DNA of 64,000 nucleotides from Phoronis australis. Taxonomy: Eukaryota > Animalia > Phoronida. The first letter of the stretch is position 1, and the number at the start of each line of letters is the position of its first letter. Made by a program: the position numbers and the translations under genes. The DNA lies in contig NMRA01000146.1 in assembly GCA_002633005.1 (NCBI GenBank), positions 369,981 through 433,980 of the forward strand, given 5' to 3'. This document shows, in pieces, positions 6,994 through 63,997 of this stretch. The notes under the pieces are model-generated. The model had not been told where the DNA came from and ran no database searches. It was given only the letters and a program-made list of their open reading frames with translations.

Positions 6994-7329
6994 TTATTAC
7001 TTGAATTGTAACTGAAGAGTTAGCGGACAGGTATTCTGTTCGCTTGTTGGAAGCCGTGCATATGATCTTGACATCGTGGTAGTCGTTTGTAATGTTGAGC
7101 GTCACCACAGCGGTAAAGATTCCGCTGCTTCTTTCTTTCACTGCCGACTGTGCTAAGAGAAACCTTTGACCGGATATAGGATTGTACTTGGAAGAAGTCA
7201 TATTCACGCCTTCTTTACAGTAGTCAGTAGTACATGTTATCTCAACAGACTCGCCAACTATTACGACGATAGACTTGCCAGGTCCCCAACGGCCTCCTGT
7301 CTGGTTAAGTGTAGTCATGGTGGGCCCCA
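6994..7329 (-). CDS. Ig-like domain exon (phase 1-1), gene A
   Basis: Acceptor ttacAG and donor GTgagt; 336 bp open. GESVEITCTTD...YHDVKIICTASNKR...VTIQVI has the Ig Cys pair but no canonical Trp. Confidence 0.88.
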
Positions 7330-9578: not shown

Positions 9579-9900
9579 CGTAAAAGGTTAAAAATTGTAT
9601 TTTCGTCTAAAATAAAGTCATAAAAATAGCCAGTTCCGGAGTTTAAGTCACCGATCATGAGGAAAAAGCAATGTTGGTGTTTATCGTCTAGTTTAGACAG
9701 TTTCTTATGAAGAAGTGTGTAGCACTGTTTCTTTCTGACGTAGTTTAATAAGACACAGGCACTGCAGGTAGTAAATAGAGGAAGCGCATAATAATGTCTT
9801 CTCCACATGTAACAACTTTTGTCGCATTTAAAATAAACACCACACGGGAACTGAATATTTATATGCTTGGAGAAGGGTGATATCGATTGATTTATCAAGG
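9579..9900 (-). mobile_element. LINE apurinic-endonuclease domain remnant
   Basis: LMIGDLNSGTG..DFI resembles the GDxNARTG motif of LINE APE domains; degenerate. Confidence 0.5.
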
Positions 9901-10221
9901 AATTGACGCCACCGAGTACCTGCCATACTTTCTGGCTTTCTTATTACAAGTTTGTAGCTTCACTCTTATGAGAATTCTATTAATATCAAGTTCAAGTGCT
10001 CATTCATTTGACCTTGCACTGCGCAAAAATACTGGTTAGAATTGTTTTGTAATCGTATTTTTACTTGCACGCCAAGTTTTGTTGAAGTTTCGATTATGTG
10101 TCACAATAGGGCGCATATTTTTCTAAATTTTATGCATAAATCGTGCTTTCGATTTATGTTATGTGACTATATGTACTTAGTTATACTTTCTACTTCAGGG
10201 TATACCAAAGCTGCAACAAAG

Positions 10222-11760: not shown

Positions 11761-11998
11761 CTGCATGCGTCACACATAAGCAGAGGATATAATTTATAAT
11801 GAGATGAAATCGAATTATAACACCATATTGTGGAAGTGAAGCACGGCCTGTTTAACAGGGTAAAAGTTGGGTTAACTCGAGTTAAGGTTTTACTCACATG
11901 AAATTGGTATCATACATTTCTTATCGTGATAGGATTCTGTAACCACCTATAACATCAATAGCGTTAGAAAACACGAGTTAACGTTCCGGATGTCTTTG

Positions 11999-12355
11999 CC
12001 CAGTAAACATGCAGGTACTGGGCCAATACTGGCCCTGAACTGTCTTCTGTATTAGCCCAATGATGTAGGCCAGTACTGGCCTGATAACATTTTGCACACC
12101 CGATGGGTATTGGGCCGGCATAAGATTGCGATATCGGGCCAGTAAAAGGCTATTATTGGGCCAATACACCAAAATCCGGTTTCGGCGCTATAAAGAGCCA
12201 GTATTGACATACTGTGTTGGGCCATTGATGGGCTCATATTAAGCCAGCATACTAATTGCATAGGCGAAAGTGCAGTGGTGGGCCAGTACAGTGCCACTAT
12301 TGAACCACTAATATTGCCTTTACAGGCCCAATGCAGGAATATTACTGTTTGTGGG
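11999..12355. mobile_element. MITE with CCC...GGG termini and internal (A/T)TGGGCC repeats (CMC/EnSpm-like)
   Basis: cccagtaaaca...tgtttgtggg ends; many actgggcc/ggcccaat subrepeats. Confidence 0.55.
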
Positions 12356-12779
12356 TATAACGAAACAACGAGTTTGTTTCTTCAATGTTTCAGGTTTTTA
12401 ACTCCTACAACGTTCGCTTTGTTTGTCATTTCAATAATTTTGCATGTGCATTTGTGACTTAAAAGAAGAAAAGGCTCTTGTTATTTAAAGATTTTATTAC
12501 TATGAAACTGCTAAGGTAAAATAAGCAACTAATTATTTTTACATAATTGAGTGAAGCGCGTGAGGCTGGCGCGTGACAATTGCACAGTAGCATGGGGAGG
12601 TATCAGGTGAAATTTGTAAGATTTGTGTCCCTGAAACTATTTTTTCGCCAACATGTGTGATTTCGTGTAAGTTCCTCAAAAATGGCACCCGGTAAGAGAA
12701 AGTCGAGCAAACTGTATCACAAGTTTCCTAAATGGACGACAACAAACTGTAGTTGTCAGAGGCGGGACGTCGTCAAGTA

Positions 12780-13080
12780 TACCTGTGGAGTCTGGGGTAC
12801 CCCAAGGCTAAGTATTAGGACTCTGCTTCTTCCTATTATAAACGATGTTCCCCTTGGTCTCTCTGGTAAAATTAGACTATTGGCAGACGATAAAATTTGT
12901 TACAACATTGGTAACTCAGCCAATGAGAGAGAGGGGCTGCAGAAAGTTTTAGATAGTCTTGCTCTGTGGGAAGACACGTCGGACGGTTCAGTCGTCTGTC
13001 CTCAATGTCAGAAACCCTAAAATGGTCCACACTTAGCCACAGACACAAAATCTGTAGGCTGAAAATGTTTTACAAATATG
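12780..13080 (+). mobile_element. LINE (CR1/L2-group) reverse transcriptase remnant
   Basis: GVPQG*VLG, then IINDVP..LSGKIRLLADD..Y...LQKVLDSLALW and LKWSTLSHRHKICRLKMFYK; has frameshifts and an internal deletion. Confidence 0.8.
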
Positions 13081-14574
13081 ATTTAATAAGTAACCTTACT
13101 CCTCTTGGCAAGCCTATATGTTCAAGCCTGTGTTTACCGTTCAGGCATTCTAGCGCAAGCACCGTTTTTGTACTGGAGGCTTGCTTGTGGGCCAATAGGT
13201 AAGGGTTCTCTCGATTATTATCTTTGGAGGGTATTGGGTCATCAGTGGCCAGGTACGTAAACCGGTATGCGGTACACGCGGTAACAAGAAACAAAATATT
13301 CAGTACTGGGCCAATACTGTAATGAGCATCGTTGAAATGTGGGGCGTATTTTAATATATTTTAGTACCGACGCTGGTCGTTTTATTTTTGCTATTTTTAC
13401 TATTATATAATTGCATTGAGCATTAGAACTCTTACATATACGCCCACTGCCTTCATTTAACGCCATGTGGATGAATCAATGCAGCCTCGCTGATGTGAGC
13501 ATCACATTGAAAGTTGCCAATTCGATGCAAACATATACCTTTAGAAAACATGCGATTTCTAGCTGAATTCTGAAACGTAGTCAATCACCGAGTGGCCTAG
13601 AGAACTAAATTATTTCAACGTGTGCATACGCGACGATTGTAAACATTTTAAATACAAGGAACGGGAGATACATGTATGATAACGATTGCCAAGATGCCAG
13701 TGACAATCCACACAGTTTAACGGGATTGGCTAAATATTTCAATTTATGCGAAACTGTGGATTAGCTGCGAAATTTGTGGCAAAAGCTGATATTAATATAT
13801 TAATATTGTACACGTCAACGTCACACGGAAATGAAACAAACTTGGTATCATATGAGCTACGCTCTGACGGTAACCACTGCAAAGAATAAGAATACGCGAC
13901 TGAATCTTTCCGTGAGTTAACGTGTCCTGAAGTCACTTGTGTTGTCACTCATACATGTAGCAGTGTAGGTTCCAAATATTTCGTTGTGGGTCTAGTTTAT
14001 ATCAGCAAGAAAGAAAGCAAGACAAGAAAGTATTTGCGACACGTTTTACACAAAAAATATTTCATTTTAGACTTGTTCATTTTGAATTATATTCCAGGGC
14101 GATGCAGTGTTTACCTTTCCGTGCACCTTGATTGGCTGGTGTATTAATTCATATAGCTTGAGTGACAGTTGGTACTATCAAATCCAGTCTTCCTTTTCAA
14201 GATCAACTAATTATTAAGTAATTCGTTTTTGGGTTTTCGTTGCAAATTTCGGTTTGCGCACAGATTCAATTTTCTGAACCTTTCATCGATGCATTTATTG
14301 TACTTTTTAAGTAGAGAACTGGCTTGACCAAAAAGCAAGAATATTTTATTCATTCTAGAGGTTCGTGGTAATAACCTTTTTCTGGTACACGGCGGCAACT
14401 AGATGGCGTATATTGCAACAAAGATGAGATTGATTCTCAGTAACGTCAGCTCGAGTAAGGCTTGCAAAACATAAAAAAATTGGAAAACAGTATTCCGAGG
14501 CATTTCAGGGGTTCGGGCTCTACTTTAATTTTAATTTGAATGCTTATGTGGGCAGTAAAAATGTGCATACTTAC

Positions 14575-14922
14575 ATGCAACGTGGATAACAACTCTTTGG
14601 AGTTTAAAACGAGTATTGCCTCTGTCTGTGCAATAATACGATTTTTGATTGAATCGTCTATCAGGTAAAAATGTCATCTTGTGGGAACATTTCCAATAAG
14701 TTCGCAAGCCCATGACTTGCTCACACGCTTGAGTATCTTGTGTAATATGCGCACCGTTGTCATACGTTATGATTACTTGGCGAGACGCAGGTCCCAAGTA
14801 TGTTTTGTGGAAGCATTCCAGATCGTGTGTGGTCCCATCGTGAACATACCAATTGATGTCGTCTCGTATATAACTAAGGTCTGACAAGTTAATTTCCAAG
14901 TGCCCCATTGTGTGCACAGAAA
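14575..14922 (-). CDS. Divergent Ig-like exon with an extra Cys pair (phase 1-1); 5'-most visible exon of gene A
   Basis: Acceptor ctttgtAG and donor GTaagt; 348 bp open. GTTHDLEC...C...WKC...FNQKSYYC...VVIHVA includes the YYC F-strand motif. Confidence 0.8.
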
Positions 14923-14989
14923 CTACAAAGAAACCAAAATACTGAATTCAAGATATTTGCATGGTAGAGTCTATGAAAAGTTTCTCTAA

Positions 14990-15890: not shown

Positions 15891-18463
15891 ATGGAACCAC
15901 AACTGGCCAAACAGAAGAAAGTTCACGGTGCGCACAGAGGACTCATGACGAAGCTTATCGATCGTGCCACCAACTTCATGACTGCGACTCCATCGGACCC
16001 TGCTGCCGACCTGGAGAAAGTTCTGAACTAGATACACACCAAGAGAACTCAGCTAGAAATGCTCGATGCCAGCATTATCGCCCTGGTTGATGGCGGAGAT
16101 GCCATCGAAGACAAAGTCATCAGTAGCGATGTCTACATGTCCACGGTGCTGGAGACCATTTTCGACACGACCAGATTTATTGACCAAGCCAAGACACCCT
16201 CACCGACCCCAACCGCCACGACGTCTCCTGCTAGCCACCCGACTCGGACGGTACAACTACCCAAGCCGCAACTGACTATTATCTCTCGGGACCCACTCCA
16301 GTGGCTGTCGTTTTTTGACTCGTTTAATGCTGCGGTTGATTCCGATTCTGGACTAGATTCAGTCCAAAAGTTACAGCACCTGCGTGCCCACATCGGCGGC
16401 GACGTCGCCAATGCCCTCGCTGGCCTCCCACTGACGAACGCCAGTTACATAGAAGCCATGGACCTGCTTGCTGACAGGTATGGAAAATCCACTCTATTGG
16501 TCAATGCTTATATGAAATCTCTGTGGGAAATCACCATCCCCCCAAACAACTAGTGCCAGCCTACGTTACATTCGTGACACCCTTGAGACATACATCCGGG
16601 GGCTGAGGACCCTGGGTAAAACAGAAGACTCCTATGATGACCTCTTGGTGCCCATTATCTTTGACAAAATCCCTGGAGGTGTGAAAACACAGATTTGCCG
16701 AGACCATGGTCAACCTTCCTGGACGCTGACCGACCTTCTTTTGGAACTGTCCCGACAGATTTGTGTCAGCATGGAAGAGGACTCTTCCGTGGCACTTTCA
16801 GGTGAAGCGCATTACACGTCCACTTCAAGTTTTGCAGTGAGCGACAAACTAGGACCAGCGAAACATTTTCCTCCGAAGAAACGTGTACACCCACGGACCA
16901 GACGACCTTCGCCAAGATGTGCTTTTTGAAAACAAAGTCATGCGTCACACACCTGCAGAATCTTCAGCGACCCTATGAAGCGACTAGAGATTGTCCGCCG
17001 AGACCGCCTGTGTTTCAATTGTTTAGACGCTCACCAGGCCAGGGACTGCCCGTCTATGCACACTTGCCGATCGCGCAATTGTAAACACCACACCACGTTA
17101 TGTGCCACCTTTTTGCGAGAAAATTCGAAACCCGACAACAGATCGGAGGCCAGCCAACCGAACAACGAAGTCACGTCCATTGCTTACCCACCGAGTACTA
17201 CTCGAGATGCCCAGGTGGAACTGGCACCCACAGCAGGGCCAGTTTTGTTGAAGACTGCCGCTGCCACAATTGAGAGAGCGGGACATCGGACTAAGGTAAA
17301 TGTTTTAATTGATGAGGGTTCACAAGGAACGTTTCTAACCGTCAACGCCTGATCGTTGACACTGACCACGCTCCTAGAGAAACGCTCAACCCATCCACTT
17401 TCGGAGATTCTACTGCCCAACCCCAGGTACTTCCAATGACTACATTTATGCTGAAAACTCAAAATTGTAACGTACAACTGTCTGCTGTCATTGCTCCAAC
17501 AATATCTACGCCTGTGAAGAATTACATGCCAACTACTGTTAACTGCAGCTATGACTTTTTACAATGTTTGCCCATTAACTCCCCTGCTAAGTCGATGATT
17601 GAAATTGATTTGCTGCTTGGTACCGACCATTACTGGTCAATTGTTGGCGACACCACAATCAGAGGTTCAGGACCAACGGCTGTCGCTTCCAAACTGAGGT
17701 CAGGTCAGATCCCACCCGTTCACAGTGCAATGGAGCGCCGATCACTCATGCGAACATCACCTGTATGAAAATTCTTCAAGAGGAGCCCGACCCTGCCACC
17801 CAATACTGGGACCTTAAAACGATTGGAATCAAAGACCCTACGAGAGAGACGCCCTTTGATTTCAGTAGCTACCGTAACCATGGTATTACTCACGATCCTG
17901 ACACAAAATACTCTGCGAAACTACCATGGAAGGACGATCATCCACCACTGCCTACTAATTACTACATTGCCCGAAAAAGAACTCGTTCCATGGTGATGAC
18001 AATTCCCGGCAGATCTACAACAAGATAATTGTCGAGTAACTTGCCCGCGATTTTATTGAGCCTGTACTTCATGATAACTGCACAGAGGGACATTACATAC
18101 CTCATCACCCAGTGACGAAAGACAGCGCTACGACACCCATCCGCAATGTACATGATTGTAGCAGTTCTACACGCGACCATTCAAGCTTGAACGACTGTTT
18201 GGAAAGTGGTCCCTCACTCATGAACGATCTTGTTGCTACACTGTATTTTACTCCGGTTTCGTACGAAACACATTGCCATCACCAGCGACATTGAGAAAGC
18301 ATTTCTCAATGTCCGACTTCATGAAAGTGATCTTCAATTCACCAAGTTCCTGTGGCTCAGTGACCCGACTGACCCCAACAGTCCATTTATTGTATACATG
18401 TACCAGTTCAAGTCCCTACTGTTTGGATGCAAAAGCTCACCATTCATACTGAATGCAGCCTAA
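15891..18463 (+). pseudogene. BEL/Pao gag-pro-RT(partial) pseudogene
   Basis: Successive ORF fragments with stops and frameshifts; RNase H and integrase are missing. Confidence 0.9.
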
Positions 18464-29969: not shown

Positions 29970-30318
29970 TATAGTATGTTCAGAAAGAAGCAGCAGATTT
30001 TGTTCATATTTTGCTCCAAAATGTAGAAGGAACATATCCAGGTGACCTTGTTATACTTTTTAATGTCACAGCGAGAAAAATCAAAATTTTACTTGGAAAA
30101 TGCTTGGGCGATACTTCAAGAAGGAGGCTTTTCAGTTTTTTTCACATTATCCACCGAGGTGTAAAGAGAATAAGGAAATTTGCATAAATTTAATGGTTTG
30201 GTCATAAAACTTTTCGATTTCATCACCACATCAAGGTACAAGCTAGCGGTGTTCATCGTGCCATGACGGGGGGGGGGCAATTTAGTCACTCTGTGACAAA
30301 TGCTTATTCTCCTTTCAG

Positions 30319-30504
30319 TCACCAAGTGCACCGTCCCTACAGTTCACAATGCTGCTGTTAATGTATCATCGCTTACGGTACCTTACGGGACTTCAGTAAC
30401 TTTCACGTGTCAACGGAAATTCCAGTTTTCAGACAAATCTAGGGAACGAACGATATCTTGCGACGGCCACGAAAAGTGGAGTGAGCAACTACCTGCTTGT
30501 GAAG
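30319..30504 (+). CDS. Sushi/CCP domain exon 2 (phase 1-1), gene B
   Basis: Acceptor ctttcAG and donor GTcagt; 186 bp. KCTVP...YGTSVTFTCQRKFQF...ISCDGHEKWSEQLPACE. Confidence 0.92.
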
Positions 30505-30933
30505 GTCAGTTGCTGATTAGAAGTTCATATGAAAATTCCAGATCCTCTGTTTTATGTACTGTTCTCCAATTCGTTGTTAGAAATTGTTTTCAAAATGTTT
30601 TTGCACGAGAGGTTTTCAAAGATAAGACTTTTAATATTTTCGTGAAAAAATCAAGAGTTTCATAAACGAAAGCTAGGCTACATGTAAATGATTATTTTGA
30701 GATCTGTATCAGATTCTTTGAGATTTTTTTAGCGTTAATATCTAATGAAATTTGGTCGGGATATTGATACCTTTGCTATCGATGCGTCTTACCCTTTAGC
30801 TGAATTTTATCAAAAATACCTGGTTACGCCACTCAAGTAACGACAGGTTGGTGAAAAGAGAAAATCAATATTTAGCAAGATGTCGGTGTTCTAAAACGTA
30901 CATGTATGTATACTTTCACTCATTTATCTGTAG

Positions 30934-50243: not shown

Positions 50244-51897
50244 CACATAGATTGATTTCAAATCAGTTTTAACTGTGGATAACAGCAAGGGGGCGTTCAA
50301 TGACAAAGTGCCCCATTTGGTAATCGAGGTTATTAAACCTGGGGCCGGACTCACTTCTACCTTCGAAAGAATTTTACACACCTCTAAAGTCTCAATAAGT
50401 GAGCATTGATTGCTAATTGTGTAAAATAATGCAGAGAATGGACGTTGTATTTTACCTTGCCATTAAGTCTTGACAATGATGCACTTCTCAAATATCGATG
50501 AGGCCCGCCAAATGACCCCAGTACAAGGGTCACCGCAGACAGATGTATTAGAGCCGAGCAACTGCCTCAAGCGAGCGATATCTGAGCCCATGACAGGTCA
50601 CGTCAAGGCGTGAGAATGCGACAACAGAAGAATAAACTGGTCGCTAATTCACTCGTCCGTGCATTATCAGCACACCAGTTGTTGATTTTAGGCTCGCGGC
50701 TCAGTTTCAGCACGTTTCTGTCTACGGTGGTCTGAGCTACTAAAACATGGACTTCCGCAGAGAATGTAGTCAAAAGCTCACTTTTGTCATTTAATTTTGG
50801 TTTTTCAGGACAGTCCACATTGGTAAAGAGTGTGGAGCGGTTGTCAAGCACAGCCAAACAGTGTGTTGCACATTTTTCATGCAAATTAATTTTGATAACT
50901 CTTTAGGGGAGGCTGGTGAATAGTTACCCGTCAGTTATCACCTGGAGAACACGTGATTGTCAGTGGAAGCCTACTTAAGGGAAGGTTTGCCAGAGTTTTC
51001 TACGTCACTGGCTGTCAAATTCACCAAAACATCACCAAACCCCGACTTCATTTTCTTGAGTTTGAAAACAAGAATCTGTTAGAATCTGTCAAAGTTGACG
51101 TTTTCTCTACCCCGAGCAGGTTACGGATTTCTATCTTTTGGCTTCAAGTCGTCGACCGATTTTATAAGATTGATTGCCTCAGCCCTATTGCGTGGAACAG
51201 GCTTAGTTATGGTTAGACAGATTTTTAGACGAAAGATAAGAGATTCTTTGGTTGACGAACATCCCTCTCCCCACTCCGTGTTGGATTAAGATCCGTTCAC
51301 ACAGGTGAACTCCATCAAACGTTAGCTCAGCAACATGACTTAAGTTTTGATAAGTTTGGAAACCAGTTCATGCTAGCAACAAATAAGGAGGATGCCATTT
51401 GGTTATTATTCACCAAACTCCACCAGTGTTCAAATTAATGTGCATGACCAAACTTCAGCACGTTAAGTGGATCGTGTCTGCAAGCCATCCAAACAGGAAA
51501 CTTTTGTCGGCAGACTTGGCCAAAATCAGGGTTGGGTTTTTTGCAAAGTTTACACAAAATGCCGATCTGGACGTGTCTTTCAAATCCATCGTGCGCATGC
51601 GATGATGTACATATAACTTTGGAAATCTTGTGTTATAGAAAGGTTATAGGTCTTGCGAAACTTCCTCAGTAACTCAACAGTCCGGTCGCACCCACCAATT
51701 ACGTCAGTTTTGTTCATTCCTCTAGTAGTATGAACTTTCAACGTCGCGAGCTTACACACGAAACCCTAGTGTGATCTAGCTCTTCACTGCCGTGTCTTTC
51801 CTCAAAATTGCAAGAAACTAGCTTCACTAAACACTACGACACTCATGTGCGCACCCTTTTAGATGTTGGAATTTTGATGTAAATATTTGAATATACA

Positions 51898-53162
51898 TCA
51901 CTTTTTGCCCACTGGTGTGGGCCTGTATACAGAATTGTGACTTTCGGGCAAAACCCTAGCTGTTCCGAGCTTAGGACTGTTGACGGAACTAGACCGCTGC
52001 TTCCTTGATATTGACGACGACCTTCGGCAGCCGAAAATGCTAAGCTGTTGCTCCAAATTTGCTGGAGAGACAGGACCACTCACTTTACTCAGTTTGTAAG
52101 TTGCCGTGGCGTGAGCCCAAGCATAGAAGTAGTAGATGGTATTACTTGACTTTTTCACGTCTTTGTGGTTGTAATGACCCAGTATTTCTAGAGCCCGTGC
52201 TGCTATGGTGGGAGGTAGATTTTCAACGTTAAAATTTCTCAACCTCGATTGGAAATCATGGTCTTCATAACACTGTTGGAGACAACTGACCCAGTCTTTT
52301 GTTTTCCCTTCGTTCACTCCAAGAATCAGCAATGCTGCAACTAAAGTGTCGTGTATTGATCGAGTTGGAAATCTGTATCGTTGTAGCTCAGCAACACGCT
52401 GCCTGCTTATTGTCATCAACATTTTCGTGTAGCGATTCATGGTTCTGATGTGAACCAGCCTGTCGCTGGCCTCTTTGAAATCTTCTAACACATCAAATAA
52501 TCCCTGCCGGGCAGCCACGGCGATCATTCGTTTCATTCCCGCGTGATCCTTAGTTTTCTCCATGCCTTGAATTGTAGACTTAAGCGTAAGCGCCATGATC
52601 AATTTCTGAGATTGTCGGATCAGCTCCACGTCTTCATCCAGCTGTTCCCGTTTCATATGAGCTGCTGTTTTATTGTAGTTTGTCAGAGCCGCTTGGATTT
52701 TCTCGCGGTCCTTAGTTCCTTGACTTAACGTCAACGTTATTTTGTTGAGTTCGTGCTTCAGGCAATTGATATCGCCTAGTTTCTTCGGAGGTTCCACCTG
52801 CTGCCTGACATGTTCGCTTTTCTTATCAGCAACATTTGAGCAGGTGGACAGGAAACGTCCAAGCATGGTTCCATTGTCTATCACATGGAGTGCGTTGAGA
52901 ATTAGAGTGTGCTGTGTTATTGGTTCTGCAATCTTACCACGGGATTTCTTCCTTTCCTCTAGCATTTGTAGCAACTTGGCCACAACGTTGTCGAACTCTA
53001 CTTCTCCTTCAATTATTAGTTGTTTCGTCTCTGCCAGGTAAGCATTGCGCATGTGCCACACGAAAATGAAGACAAATGTGAAGCAGCAGATAACCAGGAC
53101 CAATGTAGTCAATGTCTTTGACTCTGTAACATCGACGACATGAGTCCAGAGGTATTCGGGCA
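51898..53162 (-). CDS. Terminal exon of receptor gene C: TM helix, helical region, dynein-stalk MTBD-like domain, Ser/Arg tail
   Basis: Acceptor ttgattgtAG in phase 1, in frame with the TSP1 exon; ~420 codons open. TM segment LTTLVLVICCFTFVFIFVW; MTBD-like VAELQRYRFP..IHDTLVAALLILG...W...FQSRLRNFNVENLP...VKKSS....FYAWA. Confidence 0.9.
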
Positions 53163-53772
53163 CTACAATCAATCAAAACCATGTGCAGGCTCTTGAAATG
53201 CGAAACTTTTAAAAGTATTTCGAATAACACATTGCTTAAGTTTTCGTGGCCCCTAAAATTACCCAGATACCATTTGGCAGTTCGGGGGTGCGAACTGCTG
53301 ACCAGTATATACACAATGTCTAGACCTTGAACAAACCCGTTTTTTAGTAATACATGTAATGTTCACAGGCTCAAAAATTCGTGACACCCGCACCTACATT
53401 TTAGGCTGGGCGCGCGCATGTGGCGAAATTCTGGTTATTTCTACATGTATGTCGTGGCCGCCACTAACTCAAAATACGGGATCCACCCTTGCTATTGTCT
53501 CTCGTCGCTCAGTCGTTTTGACTATATTGCCACCCTTTGTATATCGAAAGTCTGTGACAGGCAAATGTCATTTGAGAGTCACCCCAGTTTTGCAACCCCA
53601 TAAACCACGTATCATCACAACGAAAAAGTGGGATTGTACTTCGAACACCTACATGTACCTACATGTGCCTACACGTAAAATATATTTTGAAGAATTTGCA
53701 GTTATTACACTTAGTGGTCAAACTACGTCTAGTTACATGAACCCAGTTAGTGGGTTTTGAATTTCTACTCAC

Positions 53773-53961
53773 TTTCGTGATATGGGTCACATGGGAATTC
53801 GTCTTTGCAGGCTGCAAACTGTTTGTACGAATCCGGGCAGTCGTCGCCCCCATTATCCGACGGCGGCGGGTTGGTGCAGGTTCGTTCTCTGCGTCGAATT
53901 CCCTTACCACAAGTTGTACTGCAACCGCCCCATTCAAGCCAATCTGACCACACACCATGAA
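53773..53961 (-). CDS. Thrombospondin type-1 repeat exon (phase 1-1), gene C
   Basis: Acceptor tttcttgaAG and donor GTgagt; 189 bp. HGVWSDWLEWGGCSTTCGKGIRRRERTCTNPPP..GGDDC...C....C. Confidence 0.95.
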
Positions 53962-54146
53962 CTTCAAGAAATGAGAGAGGACGTGTTACCGTATCTTAAT
54001 TAATCTACAGATAAAGTGTCTGCGTGCACGACACTCTTAAATAAGTCTTGTTTGAAGACTGAGGTTTGCAAAGCTTCTTGAACCTGACTTCTGCTAAACA
54101 CCACTAGAGATTCATACCGTCTCATACCCGTTCTTACATCTTCCCT

Positions 54147-55117
54147 AATAGGCGGATTTAGGAGGGCCNGGCTGCCGCAAAAAAAATAAAACACCAACAG
54201 CGTACGGAAATGTTGAGTTTATTAATTAACCCCGGTAATTAAAATTATACGGATGAAACAAGATTGAAATGTATACAGTTTCAGTGTTGGGGGGTCCAGA
54301 TCATATTTCAAGTGTCAAATTCGGAAAACGGCGCAATCGTTACGGAACTATGGCTAACTATAGGCTCTCCTGCGATATCCCAGGCGACCGGCAGTGGCTC
54401 TGCGCACTGCGACTCCGTTTCCGTCGTCTGCCCCACTGTGCAATGAAAAAAATTTACTTCATTTTTTAAAGAAAATGGAACCTGAGTGACGATGAAAAAA
54501 CAGAAGCTGCTGGTAAGATGTGAATTTCAATCGACGCCTGAGTGAATCACTCAAAAACTCATAATTCTCTCTTTGACAAACCTTACCTTAAGACGATTTC
54601 CAAACCAATCCCGTCATTTTTACCAACATGAAAAACGGATTTGGTCTTTTGGACATTTGAACATAATTTTAAATACAAACAAATTTGTTACGAACCGAGT
54701 TCACAAAATATAAAACATGTAATAAGCATTACAAAAAGAAATAAGTTTCGCGTGCATACGCTGTGGATCACAAACAAGTAGGTCTCGTAGTATCAGATTA
54801 GGATTTAAATCGTGATAGTGTAGTGGTAAAGCACGCGTGCTCTATCCACCAGGTCGTGAGCTCGAGTCTTTGGGATGTGCAGTTTTTCCTGTTTGACACG
54901 TTTTACTTTTTTGCTTTTTTTCTTGGATAATACTCCAGGAATCAAGCAAAACGCTTGATTTTTGGAGAAAAAACAGAAAAATTCCTTGGGCGGGAAGGGG
55001 GGCAAACCCCCCTCCCGACCTCCCCCCATTCGGTGGTATGCGCATCTACAATCGTGGGGTGCGCAAATGCTTACAGAAAAAATGTTGCCCCCTTGTGATA
55101 TCCTAGATCCGCCACTG
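54147..55117 (-). mobile_element. Second copy of the ~970 bp CAGTGGCGGAT element (inverted; contains an N at 54169)
   Basis: Reverse-complement colinear with 8608-9578; ends tcctagatccgccactg. Confidence 0.85.
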
Positions 55118-55309
55118 CGTCGGGGGTTTTCGTGGATGAATTCATGCAATTCATCACACTGCAAAATGGGTCCTTCCCCGTTGTTTTGGCGCTTCCTGGT
55201 TGACAGTTGGTGTGTCACCACTTGGCGACGCTAGTAGTAGCGGTAACGGCGAACTCACAAGTGAACTCTCCTATTCTACTACAATCCTTGGTTTCAGCTT
55301 AGGAGTTAA

Positions 55310-57450
55310 GAGACAGTCCATATAAAAACCAGTTGATTTTCAAAAATCAGTCTATACGTCAAAATTTAAAACAAATTCATTTTTGTACATGGGTAGGTAT
55401 CCTAAAATAAGCCCAAATGCCAAATTTTGTGCACTCAATGACCCCTAATTTCGCCGCTGGAGCATGATAACACAAATTGGCACAATTGGGCATATTAGCC
55501 GTCTCAAAAATCGCATGATTTCAGCAATAAAATGAGTAACATACAAAATAGATCAAAAGCTATATTTTGGTGGCTGAAATAACCAACGTATACTGTACAT
55601 AATTCTGTGCCAAAATCTGACAGTTTTGTGCTAGACATGGGAGATAACCCACAGACCACTTTTTGGGGCTAATTTTAGTGGCCATTTTTGTGACCTTCTT
55701 ACTGTCATAAAACACCTTTTAGCCTTATGTGACGTTTTGAACATACACTGTACAGTTAAAGAGTTAGTCTTGATGACTGAGCAATAAAAAATCTTGCCTC
55801 AACTTTGCACCTTAGTGAAAATTGTCTTGCAAAACTGTCTATTTTCATAGTTTGGAAATGACGAGCAGAGTTTACAGACCATTTGAACAAACATTTAGGC
55901 AACAAGTCTGCTTTAAATAGTTATAGAAACCAAGTCTAAACTCTTTCAAATGAAAACAAGATGTTTTCCGGGTTTATTACGCGGCTAGTATCAAACCTGA
56001 ACCCGATGACCTTTGCCCACTGAGGGAGTCAGTTGAGGTTAAACTTGAGGATATATAAAAAATGTACGTGTAACCCTATTGTATTCTTTCATTTCTTTTA
56101 CATTATCAGGTTAATTTAAACACTGTAGACATTTTAAATGTAAATAAATGCCTTTAAGATTAAACGAGAAAGAATTGATATTTGTAATGACTGGTTTTGA
56201 GAGAAGCAAGGGCATTTTAAAAAGACAAAATGGCGGACGATGTCGATGGGCCTTCATGTTCCTTGAGAGTTTATTCTGCAAAAAATCTGATCACAAAAGC
56301 TTTGTGCTTTAGTGAGTTATGTCAAAGACACCACTGAACATTTGAGATACAGGAAACTACCTCGCAAAGCAAGGCTTGTGCCAGAGTACGCACTCGTACT
56401 ACCCAGAGTCGGTGAATTTCTGACTGAACAGGACCAGTCATGGAAGAGGCAGGTAATGCTGGATGTTACCACTATGCTCCTCTCCTCCTGAACGTAACAG
56501 CCTTGTCAAATTCTACCGGCATTTCTGTTTCGAGATATGACTTTAGTGAAAGTCAGAATGGAAAGGATCTCTGTGATCGCAAGATCGCTCCACTCAAACA
56601 ACATGTAAAATACTTTGTAAACTTTCTGGATTTGAAATAAGCATTACTTTCCAGTGGCCGTGTGAAGGGATGTTATGTGCATGCATGTTCAGTCAATGCA
56701 ACAAAGTCTTTTCCAAAATACTCAGTTCCTGGTATAAGCACATTCCCAAATTCCCACTATTCCACCCAAGGAATTCGCGTGTGGAAATCATTCCATGTAG
56801 GTGACGGTAAGTTCTTACAAATACTGAGGAAATGGGAAACCTATTTCTCTAAAATACACTAACATCTCTAGACATGGCGGATTTTCAGCACCAAGAGTAA
56901 AGGTTGGCATTGTATCTTGTGAAGAGCCTCAACAATTGTTCCGTTGTACCCAGCAAGGTTACTCGAATTTTTTTGCTACAGACGCAGAACTAGGTCAGCA
57001 TTTGGGTGTGGGTAACCACACTGAACATTTAGAGAGGGAAACCACGTATGACCACATCACACGACAGTGGTCAGAAATGCTTTCAGATGCAAGAACTGGA
57101 GCGTCATTTGAAGCAGCCTCAGAGTACTATTTGGATGAGACGAATGCTGAAGCAATAGGTTAGGCATTGAAAAAAGGTAAAAGGTCAACAATATTTTCAG
57201 CAAAGGTCAAGAATTTTCTGACGAACATATTCGATGAAGGAGATAAGTCAGGTAAAAACGTTCACCCTCGGAAGTGTCAAAATGGAGAAAACATTACGAG
57301 AACCCACAGGTAAAGTGTTTACCTGTGATATTAAATGAATCGCAGATTGGTGGATTTTTCCGAGGTTGTCTGCAGCAATGTTTATGACGATGCAATTTCT
57401 GCTGAAGATGCTGTTATATCGTCAGATTTACTGAATGATGTGGTAAATGA
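55310..57450 (+). mobile_element. Sola3-like DNA transposon remnant
   Basis: TTAA|GAG left end; NAGCYH...YDFSESQNGKDLCDRK, a C2H2-like FRCTQQG..HLGVGNH, and a QIGGFF motif. No right terminus identified. Confidence 0.6.
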
Positions 57451-59379
57451 GCTCAGCGTTTAGCCTATTTTTGTGTCATACCAGTCAAAGATATGTGATA
57501 TATGAAGTCGAGACCTATACTTCTGATTACTTCATGTCTGTCATGAATGAGTCATTAATAAAATTGTCTCTCGTGAATTATTTTCTATTGACTGTGAATG
57601 TGTACCTTTTTATACCACTGATGATCACACTGACAGAAATATTCAGCGTTAGGGGGCCCGGTGTGTGGGGGAACACCAGATATCTGGCGACTGGTGGCGA
57701 CTAAAATGTGTAGCAACCAGCAGAGACGTTACAATATGAGCCCAAAGTTACAATGACTATTGACAAGTTGAAAGATTTTTTTGCACTGAACACTAGGGGG
57801 CCATATCCACCTTGGGTGCCTTCCTTTGCCTGTGGCACGAACAAGGCAGATAGATAACAAGGCAGGGGTGAGTTCAGTAACACTAGAACCTCTCTAAAAT
57901 TTATCCAAAACCACGTGTTCTCATTTAAAATGCAGGGCAATATCTCGCGAGTCTTGAATTACATGTATAGCAAGGTCCTCGTGTTACTGCTCTTATTCTA
58001 GATGCGTCTTCAGTCTCTACGTAAACAAAAGCATCGCCATCTATCATTTAGAACCACGCATGCCAGTTGATTTACGTTACATATTTTTTGTAATAAGCAA
58101 TAATCATCAATGCCGTTTTCAGAGAATGGTAATTAATAATACTGTCTGCCTTTTCTCCAAAATACAAGGTTTTTATGTCGTGTTTCGCAAGCTAATTATA
58201 TGTTCCAAGAGCCCCCTATCGGCAGCAGAGGCAACTGAGAACATGCAAAAGCACGAAGTGCAGTTCGTGTAATGCTTCGTACGCAAAGACTACATTAGAG
58301 GAAAGATTTTTTGTTTTAGATTGTGAACAGGTTAGGAATGACTAAACAAATTATTATCAAGTCAATTTCAGGAAAGGTGTGTTATGGCTGCTACAGAGTG
58401 CCAAATTTGGCCAAAAATGGCTTCAGTGAAACCCTGAAAAATAGTCGTTTTTGCCTCACAAATTCAAAACGTACAAATTTAAAAATGGATTTTGAAAGTT
58501 ACGCCATTAAATTATTCAGCCACTGCGCTTTCAATTCGTATTTTTCATTTGTTTTGACCTTACCACACATGTTAGTAAAATGCATTCAAACATGCCTACT
58601 TCGACGCCCAATTTTTTTGCAAAAGGGAGGTACAGGTCATAAAAAGAAAAATAATGAATGAAAATTCTTAAGAAGTGAAGTTTTTCTAAGAGTCAACAAA
58701 CCAAACTCATGTGCTAAGTTTCACAAAAATCGGTGATTTTACAGACAAAATGTTGGGCCCCCCTTGTGATATCCTAGATAAGCCTCAGTTTGAAAGTCAA
58801 TTGTGGTCCCGTTGTCTAATCTGTGTAATCGAAATGGAACGCGAAAATACTTTTTGTATTTTTCGATCCGTTATAATATTCTTTTGCGCAAGCTCCACAT
58901 TAGTGTTTATTATTCTGTACTCGATTACATTATGATTTTGCCGATGAGTCTCTAATTCAAGTTGGTGTGTGACGACACCAGCATTCAAACTCTAACTTGA
59001 GTTCGACACTGAACTCGAAATCTCCAGTCTTCAGCTCGTATCAAGTGCCCCCGTTCTTCAAAATACATGTATAAATACCTATTATATAAAATGCATCGTT
59101 TGCACAAACTCAGTCTCCCCCGTTCCACTACAGACCTTCGTTGTGCCCATTTCGGCACCTTGGTCCTAGGTATTGCACCGGCTCCCTGTTTGGATTCGAG
59201 GTGTTCTATTTTTTCTCGCGGACCGTTTTTTCGCAGACGCGGAGGTAGGATGGCCAGTTTCGTATTGGCTCAGTAGGCTCAAAGGCCTGGCTGACGTCAC
59301 TTCGTCGACTTAATTTCACTCCCTCTGGCTTCTGTCGCGTATATAATTCATCGGGTCTGTCGCCGCCAAATTTAATGAT

Positions 59380-59970
59380 GCCTCATTAAAAAAAATTTTA
59401 CTCTTCCTTGAGTAAACTACATTATTCACCCGGGTGTTGGAAAACTGGCCTTCTTCAGTCATTCTGCTCCTAAAATTGCGATGCGCTCTTTGGGCGCCAT
59501 TGCATCACCGATCGAGCAAAATTCCATGTTCTTCAATCAACTGTGGAGGTTGCGTAAATGTAATAACAATCGGAAGTGGTTTCATTTCGTTTCAAGTTTT
59601 TACTATTTTAATACCAAAAATAAAACAATTTCAGAAAATACTCTCGAGAGATATCTCAAAGTTTTGGGAAATGGCGCGTACGCGCGCGTGTCACGAGATT
59701 GCACTGTTTTCAAAACGACGGCAGATAGGATTTTCCTTTGTTACAAAAGGCGGAGAATTACGAAACATAAAGTTTATTAGATTTTGTTTACTTCTATAAA
59801 CGGCTGTAACGGGCACTGTGAATGTCGATTCATTCCCAGATTCTGCATGCACCCTTGCAGGTTCTTAGCTATAAGTTTCACGACGAGAGAACGAGGTAAG
59901 GACCCGGGTTGTGTGAAACGTCGGTGTCTAACGGAGCTCTACACTCGGCTACCTAGCTGACTGTATGTTG
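59380..59970 (+). repeat. Copy of the interspersed repeat also found at 15.0/18.8 kb and 20.3 kb
   Basis: Shared ttcttcaatcaactg, aatggcgcgt..cgtgtcacgag, ttcccaga.t.tgcatgcacc. Confidence 0.7.
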
Positions 59971-60051
59971 ACGACAGTCTTCATACATCTAGCTGGCTTT
60001 CTACCTCAGTAGGTACATGTAGATTCATGATGCAACGTTTGTAAATGCATC

Positions 60052-60212
60052 CAGGGGAGGATCCAGGATCTTGAGTTTGGGGGCACGGCAAATAGAGTAT
60101 TAGCCAGAATTTTGCCCTTCAGACATTCGCACTCCAGAACTGCCAAGTGGAAGCTGCGAGAATCTTATGGGGGGCCATGGACCTCCTTGGACCCCCTCTA
60201 AATGCGCCACTG
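60052..60212. mobile_element. Short CAG(G/T)GG-terminus MITE
   Basis: caggggaggatccagg...cccctctaaatgcgccactg. Confidence 0.55.
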
Positions 60213-61385
60213 ACTTCTATTTACTTTGTGCACTATACAATATTTTAAATGCTTTCTTAGTTTTCACTTTAAACTGAAGAATATCTGATTACCGTACTTT
60301 GCGTTACGGCAGGGTCAAATGTTCTGGACAGAAATTTGTACTGCCTAGGGTAAGAATCCCACAGCCGCACACCTTAATTGCCTACTAAAATGTGACAGGT
60401 GATAGAAATTCTGCTTGAAACTTTGAACACGGTCCATGTATCTTGCGATGAACACTTGATCGGTTCACTCTTAGGTGTACATGTAGCTATTTCCCCTCGG
60501 CGTTTACCACTAGCTGCTTCCCGTGCAAAAGCATGGGTAACGCCTAGTATAAATTAATTAGCGTTAATCATACTGTATTCAAGCACGGGATAGTAGGCAT
60601 TAACGCGGATTTCACTCAAAAGTACTACGGAAATTGTGAAAAACTTGGAGTTCACTTTTGAGCACATAGATTAGATTCCAGACTTTTCAGTACATAGATT
60701 AGATTTCAGACCCTGAGGTAGGGAAAACTGGAAGTCCTAATGACCAACATGGTCAAGTGGGCTTCAAGAGATCTCTCTCAAGCACTAACGAACTGCAACT
60801 ACCAAGCCAGTAGAGTACTTTTCTATCTCATGTGAAAATACTGTTAAGTTGTCAGAGAATGAGTAATCGGAGACATGGGAACATCTGCTACCCAGTTTCA
60901 CATTTCATATTTTTCTCTCTGCGGAGTTTGTCATGTACAGTATATACGTCAGGTTAAAGAGTTTCAAACCAACATTTTGGACTTGGTATCTACAATTTAG
61001 ACCACGATGAAATTCTGGGCCCAGTTGCATAAAATTTATAGGCTGCATAGCAAAAATGACGTCGCATTAACACGTGTCACGTTGTTATTGTTGAACACTG
61101 CACCTGACGTCATGCAACAATCAAACTTATCCAGCGGATAACTTTTGAAGCTTTATGCAGGCAACCCAGCCCTGGTGTATGCTGTTGCAGTAACTTAACA
61201 AGCGGCAGTTTAGGCGATTGTCACCGAATAATAAATTTGGTGACCTTCACAATTTTACACATTTACAGTAGTCAAAGACTAAAAAGCCATAATTAATACG
61301 TTAACGATCATAAATTAAAACTATATGGAAGACCTTTGACAAGCCATGAGTAAATGGTGTAGAAACTTTCACTGTAAGCAATTAC

Positions 61386-61709
61386 CCACAACTTTTAGAG
61401 TCGCCGAAACCGAGGCCGTGAAGGAAGGCTCTCGACTGTTCACCGCAGAACACGTGAACACTTCGTCAGCATGGTTCATATACCTCGTGAATGACAACAC
61501 CTTTTGTATATATGTCCCTCCGACTCGTCGTATGATGACCGTTGGTGTTGTTGAGTTAGCAAAATTGGACGAAAAATTTGCCCGTCCTCCTGGGTTTATT
61601 TTTCCCAGGCAGCGAATGGTTGCCTCGGTACCGTTGTTAACGATCACCTTGCCGTTAACAACACGTGAAACGGGGTCGTCGCTTTGAATGGACATGTCGT
61701 ATGGTCCAG
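61386..61709 (-). CDS. Ig-like domain exon (phase 1-1), gene C
   Basis: Acceptor tttttctgtAG and donor GTaatt; 324 bp open. NGTEATIRC...VFTCSAVNSR...ATLKVV. Confidence 0.9.
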
Positions 61710-63649
61710 CTACAGAAAAAAGGAGTATTGGTTGTGGCATTGCCGTGGTACAAGCTTAAGTCACACATACCATAGTTGCAAATTTTCTTGGAAATGATTA
61801 AATAGAGAATAGAAACTATAAATAGTTGTATTGATACAAGGATCATGAAATTAATAGTAGCAAAACACACTGCATCCCCTAGTCAGAAAAACTGCAGGGG
61901 TCGGTTGTACAAACGTAATGCGTTATATACAATGTAACAACAAGAACGTCCAATCATTAGGCGTTGAGTTGCCATTGTTGAACCTAGTATTTCAGTGACG
62001 TCATACAACGATCAAAACGTGTCCATCTGATAACTGAGTAAATTGAAAAGGTTATGTAATCCAACCTTGAAAATTAACTATAAAATAGACATTCAAATCA
62101 GTCGAATACAAATCCTTGAGTGTGCATTACGGGAAAACTTTCAGCGATAGAGAAAAACAGGACCCGTGAGATATTTTACTAGTCGAAGTATTAATGTAAA
62201 CTGAATGAAAATTAATAACAATTCTTGTTATTTGAAACCTAAAAGAACAACGATCTCAAGGGAAGGCCATGGATTATGACAAGCTCAATAACTGTCCGTG
62301 CATGGTTCGAATTACCCCGTGAGTGGCGCACTATACTCCAATCACTGAACTCAACCAAAATGCAAACGACGCGTCTTGAAATGTGGTAGTCATCCAGAAA
62401 ACAGGAGGTGAAGGATTTTCGTTGTTGGACGTTACAAAAACAGCTTGTTATGTCGTTTTAATGTTTCAACACGCACAGATATTTAAGTTCGTGATCGTTA
62501 AAAACAGAACTCTGCTGACTAAAGTAATGTGTGACATAAGGTAAAAAATCAAAGGCCACCTAACGATTTTCATTAGGAGCGATGGCCTTTCCTCTCTGAA
62601 GGAATAGCGAAGAAAATTACTGACGACTCACAACTAAAAAGAACAATACATGATGTATCAAGAAATGAAACAGATGACTGTCAGGTCATGAATAGACCAC
62701 ATGACGGAACTTGAAATGGTGAGAACACCAGTGACACCTTTGGGAAGAAAGAAGTTTTGCCTCGTGTCTGAAAGTAATTGTTTACAGACACGTTGCGGGT
62801 GTGAATCCAGCACTCGCAAAGCTAAGAACATTCGAGAATGAAAAAGGGGAGCAACGCAACTTAAAACGCGAGAAAGAGGTCCAACATGGTTTACAGGACC
62901 TCCAAATTTGCCCACAGGCTTGAGGACGGGTGGTCCAATTTACCAACACGCATGTTTTTCTGAAATGATCTCTGCATCTGTGGTCTATACCAAACACACC
63001 AAAGAACACTGACACTGCTTTACTTAGGTCGAGATGGAAACACGTGCTCGGATGTCGTCACACTCGAAAACGTCCTAACGGTGTTGTTTTCGGAGAAGTC
63101 TAAAATGGGCAGGACAAGAGGGCTATGTCGCGTAGGAAACCACAATATGCCAGAGTGTCAGAAAGTGCCATGGTACATGTTGATGGTGTAGCGATACTGT
63201 TGGATAGCAGTGAGCAAAAACGCGAACGTGTTTCCAGCACGACTGCAGACAGTGAGTCAATTCTCCATGCTGACATGGTGCCACAATAGTCGCTGATTGT
63301 GATTTGGGCTACGTATACCCGTCTTTTTAAACATTTTACTCAAGCACAGAATTACACGACGTGTGTTCTAAGTAAACCTGGGACTTAAACAACACTTAAT
63401 CAACTAGATTAGGCTCTACATATAACTCTCGTTGAGTGACAGGATTTCAGGCCATGTTTCGAAGTCAACCGGTTGAAGACGGGTGGTGTCACGATTGGCT
63501 ACACTTGGAACATACCTGACCTATCATAGCCGTAGGCTATAGCGGTAATGTGGCATGAATGTTATCGAGGACAACGGTAGAAAGCATCATGATAACTCAA
63601 TAGCGCATCTTTGCATTTAGTAAGCAAACGTATAGTGTATAACATTTAC

Positions 63650-63997
63650 CAGTGACATCCAATGTTCTTGATTTGGACGCTTTGATATCAGGTGCACGTG
63701 AATTGGTAGCAACACACTCTATGGTGCCAGCGTGATATTCATAAGTAATAAGTGCTGACGACGTTGCTTCGTTCATGTTGTCGAAGGCACGGAGGTCACG
63801 TGTTTGCAGATGATTCACTGCACTGTCCACCGTAACAAGCCTTATGTCAATGTCTGAGCCGATGTTGGCGACCCCTGACGTGCATGTCACTTTTAGCGTT
63901 GTGCCGTTGGTAACTACCACATCCTCATCCTCGCTGACTTCAGAGTATTGTCCGCGTAGTAATAAGTCAACCGTGTGAGGTCCTTTAGGCGGACCCG
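63650..63997 (-). CDS. Ig-like domain exon (phase 1-1), gene C
   Basis: tAG at the window edge and donor GTaaat; 348 bp open. GPPKGP...NGTTLKVTC...YHAGTIECVATNSR...TLDVT. Confidence 0.88.

What the first reader, a model, noticed from the sequence alone, without database searches (positions are those of the whole stretch)
51898..63997. Ig-Ig-TSP1 transmembrane receptor with a cytoplasmic dynein-stalk (MTBD)-like domain
Seen: four minus-strand exons, all joined in phase 1, give Ig - Ig - TSP1 - TM - ~380 aa tail. Near the end (~52100-52400) the tail reads VAELQRYRFPTRSIHDTLVAALLILGVNEGKTKDW..CL...DFQSRLRNFNVENLPPTIAARALEILGHYNHKDVKKSSNTIYYFYAWA. Established: this follows the dynein heavy-chain MTBD pattern (I.ELK.Y..PP..V..V..AV..LLG...W.......F...L..FD...I.........L......V...S......W). 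From recall, similar stand-alone domains end some invertebrate hillarin/KY-like proteins. Inference: an UNC5-like ectodomain end (Ig-Ig-TSP1) wired to a microtubule-binding fold instead of ZU5/death or a kinase could tether adhesion or guidance sites directly to microtubules or axonemes. I know of no described receptor with this architecture.
Basis: partly seen in the sequence, partly recalled or inferred. Interest (0 to 1): 0.9.

Follow-up and report, generated by a model that had tools for sequence, protein, structure and literature searches.

The report
Membrane receptor with dynein-like microtubule tip
A spliced, expressed gene, likely of an invertebrate animal, encodes a predicted cell-surface protein whose inner tail is predicted to fold like the microtubule-gripping tip of the dynein motor without the motor, so it would likely tether the cell surface to microtubules, which is untested.

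Summary
The gene is real. RNA reads from 2 of 4 runs span all three junctions, giving Ig-like, Ig-like, TSP1, TM and a 385-aa tail; the 5' end lies outside the window. The tail holds two three-helix repeats and a dynein MTBD homologue: family profile E 1.7e-11 to yeast MTBD, AlphaFold pLDDT 92, structural Z 10.7-15.5 to dynein stalk heads. It is not a direct dynein fragment but a mobile C-terminal module: 33 of 94 relatives are KY/hillarin-like proteins, and about six are other membrane proteins (CLCA-like, MS4A-like, mucin-like, short single-pass). None of the 94 carries Ig or TSP1. It is not an UNC5. Microtubule binding is open. The domain keeps 3 of 6 yeast tubulin-contact residues (real dyneins 3-4 of 6), but helix 3 has no basic residue and a second expressed copy loses the helix-6 lysine. 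Best reading: a static, ATP-independent membrane-to-microtubule tether (0.42); the rival is a non-tubulin scaffold (0.35). This scan has noted motor-less MTBD proteins on other DNA; my searches of its notes returned no membrane-anchored one, and my paper searches found no description.

The parts
63650..63997 (-). Exon with Ig-like domain 1; starts at an AG acceptor in phase 1, so further 5' exons lie outside the window
   Evidence: splice sites; PF13895 E 8e-5 below cut-off; joint 61709/63650 in RNA
61386..61709 (-). Exon with Ig-like domain 2 (degenerate: two Cys, no core Trp)
   Evidence: no Pfam Ig hit; pairwise match to Ig1 exon E 6e-5; both joints in RNA
53773..53961 (-). Exon with one thrombospondin type 1 repeat
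   Evidence: PF00090 E 5e-13; PDB thrombospondin-1, properdin and UNC5B hits; joints in RNA
51898..53162 (-). Last coding exon: short outer linker, TM helix and the whole 385-aa tail, in one exon
   Evidence: open frame; continuous RNA depth in X1 and X2
53056..53115 (-). Predicted transmembrane helix
   Evidence: Kyte-Doolittle 19-residue mean 2.66
52441..52773 (-). Two predicted three-helix repeats of the KY/hillarin-type C-terminal module; the last helix runs into the MTBD-like domain in place of dynein's CC1
   Evidence: AlphaFold helices, pLDDT above 90; leave-query-out family profile 14.6 bits against shuffle maximum 3.7
52087..52413 (-). Dynein MTBD-like six-helix domain, without stalk or motor
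   Evidence: profile E 1.7e-11 to 6kio; Z 12.4, rmsd 2.6 over 124 residues to 6l4p_B; leave-query-out profile 85 bits
51901..52086 (-). Basic, Ser/Thr-rich C-terminal extension, probably disordered
   Evidence: last 70 residues: 12 K/R, 2 D/E, 18 S/T
50600..51897 (-). 3' untranslated region (far end approximate)
   Evidence: strand-specific depth 8-27 in X1 and X2 down to the 50500-50950 bin
54587..54587 (-). Minor alternative donor inside an intronic repeat, spliced to the TSP1 exon; an in-frame stop lies just before the joint
   Evidence: 6 and 6 reads; translation

Best explanation
This spliced, expressed gene encodes a predicted single-pass cell-surface protein with Ig-like and TSP1 domains, whose tail is predicted to fold as helical repeats capped by a motor-less copy of dynein's microtubule-binding domain, and it would likely act as a static tether between an outside ligand and microtubules under the membrane. 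Shown: exon structure, splicing, expression in two runs, homology of the tail domain to dynein MTBD, membership of the tail in a mobile C-terminal module family, and an excess of silent changes in the exon. Inferred: (1) type I topology with the tail in the cytoplasm; (2) the module was taken from a KY/hillarin-like gene by shuffling, as TM and tail share one exon; (3) helices H1 and H6 plus the basic C-terminal extension bind tubulin weakly, with avidity from receptor clustering; (4) with no AAA ring and no long CC1/CC2 stalk there is no ATP-driven release, so it holds rather than walks.
For: A profile of 71 family rows without dynein heavy chains ranks dynein MTBDs first in PDB: best E 1.7e-11, and all 50 hits at E<=0.001 are dynein-length chains or dynein stalk/MTBD constructs. 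Model pLDDT 92.2. Foldseek top hits are dynein stalk/MTBD, probability 1.0 but E 3.6e-3 at best. VIA-align top five are dynein stalk heads, Z 10.7-15.5. Of six yeast salt-bridge residues (PMC7042235) the query keeps the K3117, E3122 and R3201 equivalents; four real dyneins score 3-4 of 6 (hand count from alignments). The E3122 equivalent is kept in 84 of 86 relatives and the R3124 equivalent is basic in 66 of 86. A short Toxoplasma intraconoidal-microtubule chain, not a dynein by the paper's protein list, has this fold (9ya2_L, Z 9.7, rmsd 3.0 over 125 residues); it is likely ICMAP2, which sits on the microtubule with 8-nm spacing. Silent changes are in excess: 20 of 40 listed differences against about 9 expected, pN/pS about 0.29 (hand ratio). 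About six other membrane proteins carry the module behind a TM segment.
Against: No binding test exists. The query has Gln at the R3124 position and no K/R in the 13 residues after the helix-3 Trp, where 84 of 86 relatives have at least one; that stretch is acidic. All four dyneins I could read keep Glu, the +2 basic residue and the helix-6 basic residue; the query keeps two of these three. A second expressed copy changes the helix-6 Lys to Thr (13 of 42 and 12 of 31 reads). Across the family that position is basic in only 13 of 86 and acidic in 33 of 86. Dynein's high affinity needs a fixed stalk registry (10.1101/590786); the module has no such stalk, and only 4 of 82 rows have a proline in the CC1-kink window. 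The query is on a long branch (1.8-2.2 changes per column). Each ICMAP2 copy also contacts unidentified helices, and it binds between protofilaments, so it may not use the dynein site.
Confidence: 0.42

Rival explanations
1. The tail keeps the MTBD fold but binds a non-tubulin partner, serving as a scaffold that links the receptor to the cortical cytoskeleton or to signalling proteins.
For: Loss of helix-3 basic residues and the Lys-to-Thr change in helix 6. The most conserved family positions apart from the Glu look like core residues (Y, P, L, G, W, S, W). Other axonemal chains match the fold: 9fqr_Xl, Z 9.5 at residues 1333-1492 (identity not confirmed), and a radial-spoke-head chain 7jrj_I, Z 6.8 over 74 residues. 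Real dynein MTBDs also bind other proteins: light chain 1 (title of 6l4p) and the N-DRC (PMC11779644). Hillarin is reported to act through septins (PMC3081291).
Against: The Glu that pairs with alpha-tubulin R402 is kept in 84 of 86 relatives, the domain is net basic (+3 in the query, family median +3), and no partner is identified. Z 6.8 is within the background range given for helical models.
Confidence: 0.35
2. The module is a decaying passenger on a fast-evolving, lineage-specific Ig/TSP1 adhesion or recognition receptor; the fold persists but has no specific partner.
For: No relative above 35% identity and none with Ig or TSP1 among 94. Long branch. A second copy about 5% divergent with many replacements. 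An Ig-rich locus with near-duplicate exons lies in the same window.
Against: The frame is open over 424 codons in the genome, the only two indels in the reads cancel each other within 6 bases, pN/pS is about 0.29 in the exon and in the domain alike, and all six helices are modelled with high confidence.
Confidence: 0.18
3. The architecture is an artefact: the last exon belongs to a separate KY-like gene or pseudogene lying inside or beside an Ig/TSP1 gene.
For: No single long read spans all exons; 2 of 4 runs show no expression.
Against: In-frame junction reads from both expressing runs at all three introns; every listed loose end at 53162 continues into the TSP1 exon (16 and 8 reads).
Confidence: 0.03

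Closest known systems
Dynein heavy chain microtubule-binding domain (middle of Pfam PF12777 MT; PDB 6kio/6kjn, 3err, 5ayh, 6l4p, 2rr7)
   Same: Six-helix fold and sequence pattern (profile E 1.7e-11; Z 12.4, rmsd 2.6 over 124 residues); 3 of 6 yeast contact residues.
   Different: No AAA ring, no long antiparallel stalk; preceded by three-helix repeats and a TM helix; helix 3 not basic; Pfam MT does not hit the query itself.
C-terminal module of invertebrate KY/hillarin-like proteins (Pfam PF23265 Ig-like_KY, often with PF01841 Transglut_core)
   Same: Same helical repeats plus MTBD-like cap near the C-terminus; leave-query-out profile scores 85 bits for the domain and 14.6 for the repeats; nearest rows in the trees are KY-like proteins and short fragments, named ones from annelids and flatworms.
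   Different: No transglutaminase-like or KY-Ig domain in the part of the gene inside the window; membrane-anchored; two residues shorter between helices 3 and 4 than 80 of 91 rows.
UNC5 netrin receptors
   Same: Order Ig-Ig-TSP1-TM; the TSP1 exon matches UNC5B at E 2e-14.
   Different: One TSP1, not two; thrombospondin-1 and properdin score better; Ig exons give no UNC5 hit; no ZU5 or death domain. UNC5 domain order is recalled.
Toxoplasma intraconoidal microtubule protein, PDB 9ya2 chain L (likely ICMAP2; PMC12819142)
   Same: Apparently motor-less protein with the same fold (Z 9.7), resolved on a microtubule.
   Different: Not a described receptor; no sequence match among the 60 of 78 rows shown; the paper has 0 occurrences of 'MTBD'. 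Identity is inferred from length (162 of 1,678 residues); the PDB title says ICMT1 but the paper's accession order would make 9YA2 ICMT-2, so ICMAP4 is not excluded.
Predicted amphioxus membrane proteins with the same module: CLCA-like (XP_078700756, XP_019614282), MS4A/CD20-like (XP_066272931, CAH1240778), mucin-like (XP_066263927)
   Same: TM segment(s) followed by the module at the C-terminus.
   Different: Other ectodomains; database gene models without a study that I found; a tree holding all seven TM-linked modules together is only weakly rejected (AU p 0.035).

Membership tests
Dynein heavy chain | AAA+ ring motor with the MTBD on a long CC1/CC2 stalk | tested here: not met
   A stop follows the domain by about 60 residues and a TM helix precedes it; the model shows three-helix repeats and a short final helix, no stalk.
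Dynein MTBD fold | Six-helix fold and sequence profile of the stalk head | tested here: met
Dynein MTBD fold | Tubulin salt-bridge residues on H1, H3 and H6 | tested here: inconclusive
   3 of 6 kept, H3 pair lost, H6 Lys varies between copies; real dyneins score 3-4 of 6.
Dynein MTBD fold | Binds microtubules | not testable with these tools
   needs co-sedimentation or cryo-EM
KY/hillarin-like proteins | Transglutaminase-like core and KY-type Ig-like domains | tested here: not met
   No PF01841 or PF23265 hit in the four exons at E<=1; exons upstream of the window were not seen.
KY/hillarin-type C-terminal module (undescribed family) | Helical repeats followed by an MTBD-like cap near the C-terminus | tested here: met
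   Leave-query-out profiles: 85.2 and 14.6 bits against shuffle maxima of 9.4 and 3.7 (200 shuffles).
UNC5 | Two Ig plus two TSP1 domains before the TM (recalled) | tested here: not met
   One TSP1 exon joined directly between Ig2 and the TM exon.
UNC5 | Cytoplasmic ZU5, UPA and death domains (recalled) | tested here: not met
   No such Pfam hit at E<=1; the tail matches the MTBD module instead.
Type I single-pass receptor | One TM helix between extracellular domains and the tail | tested here: met
   One hydrophobic peak, 2.66, in 708 residues.
Type I single-pass receptor | N-terminal signal peptide | not testable with these tools
   The 5' exons lie outside the window and no genome is held.

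The most novel reading that the evidence does not exclude
Invertebrates have repeatedly bolted a motor-less dynein microtubule-binding domain onto the inner face of membrane proteins (Ig/TSP1 here; CLCA-like, MS4A-like, mucin-like and short single-pass proteins elsewhere), creating an unrecognised class of receptors that grip microtubules directly, with no adaptor and no motor.
Probability: 0.35. Interest if true: 0.86.

Novelty: new variant of a known kind. Interest (0 to 1): 0.68.

Why it matters
Adhesion and guidance receptors usually reach microtubules through adaptors or motors (established knowledge, recalled). A receptor that carries dynein's own microtubule-binding fold would be a one-chain link from an outside ligand to the lattice. 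The gene also exposes a wide, apparently unnamed module that ends many KY/hillarin-like proteins and several amphioxus membrane proteins. One cheap co-sedimentation experiment on a 230-residue fragment would test a function for all of them, and would show whether the dynein stalk head works without its stalk.

Tried and rejected
Word-index protein searches found nothing for the tail at longer or similar lengths and only one dynein-2 fragment with an alignment. That last search did not even return the KY-like relatives already known, so these blanks say little about orthologues. Folding the tail without an alignment failed (pLDDT 41.7). The Atlas search gave unnamed, mostly mollusc clusters and one with MT in 14% of members, a lead only; a second Atlas search on the domain alone and a second VIA-align look did not complete. 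No RNA holder was listed by index; the runs came by species label. X3 has no reads on the exons and X4 no contigs, which does not show absence. No paralogue of the tail in the window by tblastn. The 'MTBD-like' hits in papers were TTLL11's unrelated helix-loop-helix. I could not confirm the identity of 9fqr_Xl (EFCAB5 was my recalled guess; searches give no chain ids, and one supplement was a picture PDF that could not be searched). The radial-spoke-head paper was not held. Direct descent from a dynein gene was considered because the helix 3-4 spacing (13) is nearer dynein's (12) than the family's (15); rejected because the repeats upstream match the family and a dynein-2 fragment does not match them. 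P0057 (partial module behind hydrophobic segments, possibly a gene-model fusion) and P0068 (KY-like, one 2.2 peak) were dropped from the membrane count.
Full report
Observation. Each has canonical AG/GT ends, all joins are phase 1, and the joined frame is open for 708 codons. No genome is held for the window, but four runs with the same species label were offered. In X1 and X2 all three introns are spanned by reads (15/11, 13/31 and 14/21 reads). Depth over the last exon is about 20-60 and strand-specific. X3 has no reads on the exons and X4 no contigs. The gene runs off the window at its 5' end: the first exon begins at an acceptor, with no start codon or signal peptide.

Ectodomain. The TSP1 repeat is firm (PF00090 E 5e-13; PDB hits to thrombospondin-1, properdin and UNC5B). 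The first Ig is weak (PF13895 below cut-off). The second has no Pfam Ig hit and rests on its cysteines and on likeness to the first. Neither gives an UNC5 hit in PDB. One hydrophobic segment (2.66) separates these from a 385-residue tail. With one TSP1 and no ZU5 or death domain, this is not an UNC5; the likeness is only in the order of domains.

The tail domain is a dynein MTBD homologue. Alone, the tail gives weak dynein hits (E 0.017-1.5) and no Pfam MT hit. An exhaustive phmmer search of 1.84 billion representatives found 94 relatives at E<=0.001, matching mainly query residues 110-390 of 420, at 21-43% identity. A profile of the query and 70 of these 94, leaving out the three with strong MT matches and most of the longest proteins, ranks dynein MTBDs first in PDB, best E 1.7e-11. 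AlphaFold2 with that alignment gives pLDDT 92.2; without it the model failed. Foldseek's top hits are dynein stalk heads, though none reaches E 0.001. VIA-align over 48,161 chains ranks five dynein stalk/MTBD structures first, Z 15.5 to 10.7, with rmsd 2.6 over 124 residues to 6l4p_B. That tool warns that helical models can reach Z 13 by chance, so I rest the claim on sequence profile and structure agreeing on the same region.

What the tail belongs to. Of the 94 relatives, 33 carry Pfam Ig-like_KY, 12 have an MT match at E<=0.001 (6 above the cut-off), and 0 have an Ig-superfamily or TSP1 match. Named ones come from molluscs, annelids, flatworms, amphioxus, a tunicate and a sponge (30 of 94 looked up). 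The module ends within 100 residues of the C-terminus in 83 of 93 rows. It consists of three-helix repeats whose last helix runs into the MTBD-like cap. Profiles built without the query score it at 85.2 bits (domain) and 14.6 bits (repeats), against shuffle maxima of 9.4 and 3.7; a dynein-2 fragment scores 31.8 and -1.5. So the tail is a member of this module family, not a fresh piece of a dynein gene. In trees it lies on a long branch among KY-like proteins and fragments, with no starred group (both quick trees). The window is therefore likely from an invertebrate animal (inferred).

The module sits behind other membrane proteins. Seven of 94 pass a hydropathy threshold of 1.9. I keep five: an amphioxus CLCA-like protein with TM at 892-910, two amphioxus MS4A/CD20-like proteins, and two unnamed single-pass proteins. 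I add a mucin-like amphioxus protein at 1.87 and drop two (P0057, P0068). The CLCA-like and MS4A-like builds each occur in more than one database record, but all are gene models. On a 34-row tree the TM label needs four changes, and one clade is weakly rejected (AU p 0.035; group defined by TM but after I had seen the first tree). Repeated independent fusion is likely, not shown.

Does it bind microtubules? Nishida et al. (PMC7042235, passages) list six salt-bridge residues in yeast dynein: K3117, E3122, R3124 on H1, R3152, R3159 on H3, R3201 on H6. Mapping through the alignment, the query keeps Arg, Glu and Lys at the first, second and sixth, has Gln at the third (Arg one further), and loses both H3 positions; its H3 stretch has no K/R, unlike 84 of 86 relatives (8 of 94 skipped for gaps). 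The family mode is 2-3 of 6. As a control, four real dyneins read by hand score 3-4 of 6, so the count does not separate binders from non-binders. But all four keep Glu, the +2 basic residue and the H6 basic residue, and the family mostly lacks the last (basic 13 of 86, acidic 33 of 86). R3382, the mouse H6 arginine, is also singled out in PMC4230729 (passages). Lacey et al. (10.1101/590786, parts 1-2 of 6) show that H2-H6 are rigid and primed and that the stalk registry sets affinity through H1; the module has no such stalk.

Selection. The reads show a second copy, allele or paralogue, in roughly a fifth to a half of reads at most listed sites, with 72 differences in 1,306 bases of which 40 are listed. 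Of these 40, 20 are silent and 20 change a residue, against 281 silent and 979 replacement sites, so about 9 silent would be expected and pN/pS is about 0.29, the same inside the domain (ratios by hand, no transition correction; a few of the 40 are not from the second copy). The exon is under purifying selection. One replacement is the H6 Lys to Thr, which argues against strong constraint on the canonical contact.

Precedents from structure. Two chains other than the dynein stalk entries rank next. 9ya2_L (Z 9.7) is from a Toxoplasma intraconoidal microtubule; by length it fits ICMAP2, which binds as a dimer between protofilaments with 8-nm spacing (PMC12819142, passages). The paper never uses 'MTBD', and its accession order conflicts with the PDB title, so the identity is likely but not sure. 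9fqr_Xl (Z 9.5) is a sperm axonemal chain I could not identify (PMC11779644, passages and a term search of 5 of 6 supplements). These support both readings: the fold can sit on microtubules without a motor, and it may also serve other contacts.

Mechanism. Most likely (0.42) a static tether: the ectodomain binds a cell-surface or matrix ligand, the repeats space the cap from the membrane, and the cap plus the basic C-terminal extension (12 K/R, 2 D/E in the last 70 residues) hold a cortical or ciliary microtubule weakly, strengthened by clustering. Every step after the domain assignments is inferred. Rivals: a non-tubulin scaffold (0.35; hillarin is reported to work through septins, PMC3081291, passages), a decaying passenger (0.18), an artefact (0.03).

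Novelty. Searches of the held library found no paper on this architecture: 0 papers with 5 of 6 terms; 2, both TTLL11, an unrelated motif, passages; 1, yeast Cyk3, listing only; 23, 20 listed; 2; 25, 20 listed; these were judged by title and abstract start. Subscription journals are mostly missing, and I recall, without a call, that InterPro marks such regions with a structural superfamily label. This scan has noted at least 20 findings with dynein MTBD words in 11 or more genomes, one of them an invertebrate giant helical-repeat protein with the same kind of cap; word searches adding 'transmembrane' or 'hillarin' returned none with all words, and no look-alike sequence. I rate it a new variant of a known kind (single-pass receptor with a cytoskeleton-type tail), interest 0.68. 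If direct binding holds across the membrane members it would be a new class of microtubule-gripping receptors (probability 0.35, interest 0.86).

Noticed in passing
window 51870-53175: A second expressed copy about 5% divergent appears in both X1 and X2 (72 differences, 40 listed). Depth is lower in the 3' UTR and the listed differences there are fixed, so the copy may not map there: a divergent allele or a paralogue.
   Followed up: partly
window 54587 to 53961 (minus): Minor splice from a donor in an intronic repeat into the TSP1 exon (6 and 6 reads), with an in-frame stop just before the joint. Either a poison exon or an alternative 5' end; the TSP1/last-exon joint forms an ATG that could start a short single-pass isoform.
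   Followed up: partly
window 1094-14947 (minus): A separate run of Ig-like exons (1094-1675, 6929-7366, 11398-11769, perhaps 14531-14947); two are near-duplicates with weak C2-set_2 matches (E about 0.001). Possibly a second Ig-array receptor gene.
   Followed up: partly
window 16032-18028 (plus): Broken frames with DUF1759 (E 2e-14) and a Cys/His-rich stretch, as in a decayed BEL/Pao-type retrotransposon (label recalled).
   Followed up: no
window 30297-30665 (plus): A sushi (SCR) domain exon, PF00084 E 4e-8, of another gene.
   Followed up: no
window about 33400 and 35240 (minus): An identical stretch of at least 160 bases occurs twice, about 1.8 kb apart (same translation at both places): a local duplication.
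   Followed up: no
window 55900-59100: Intronic region with strand-biased RNA depth, highest in X3 (up to 150), which does not express the receptor; probably a transcribed transposon remnant.
   Followed up: no
PDB 9ya2 chain L, residues 1207-1457: A Toxoplasma intraconoidal microtubule protein (likely ICMAP2) has a dynein-MTBD-like fold that its paper does not mention in the passages searched.
   Followed up: partly
proteins P0056/P0106, P0007/P0046, P0063, P0038, P0009/P0029/P0067, P0012: The same module ends CLCA-like, MS4A-like and mucin-like amphioxus proteins, a tunicate VWA protein, a group that looks EF-hand-like by eye (sponge, gastropod) and a KY-like protein with a CARD domain.
   Followed up: partly
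proteins P0023, P0043, P0082, P0078: Short proteins made of one to three MTBD copies that are closer to dynein proper (Pfam MT above cut-off) and lack the helical repeats.
   Followed up: no
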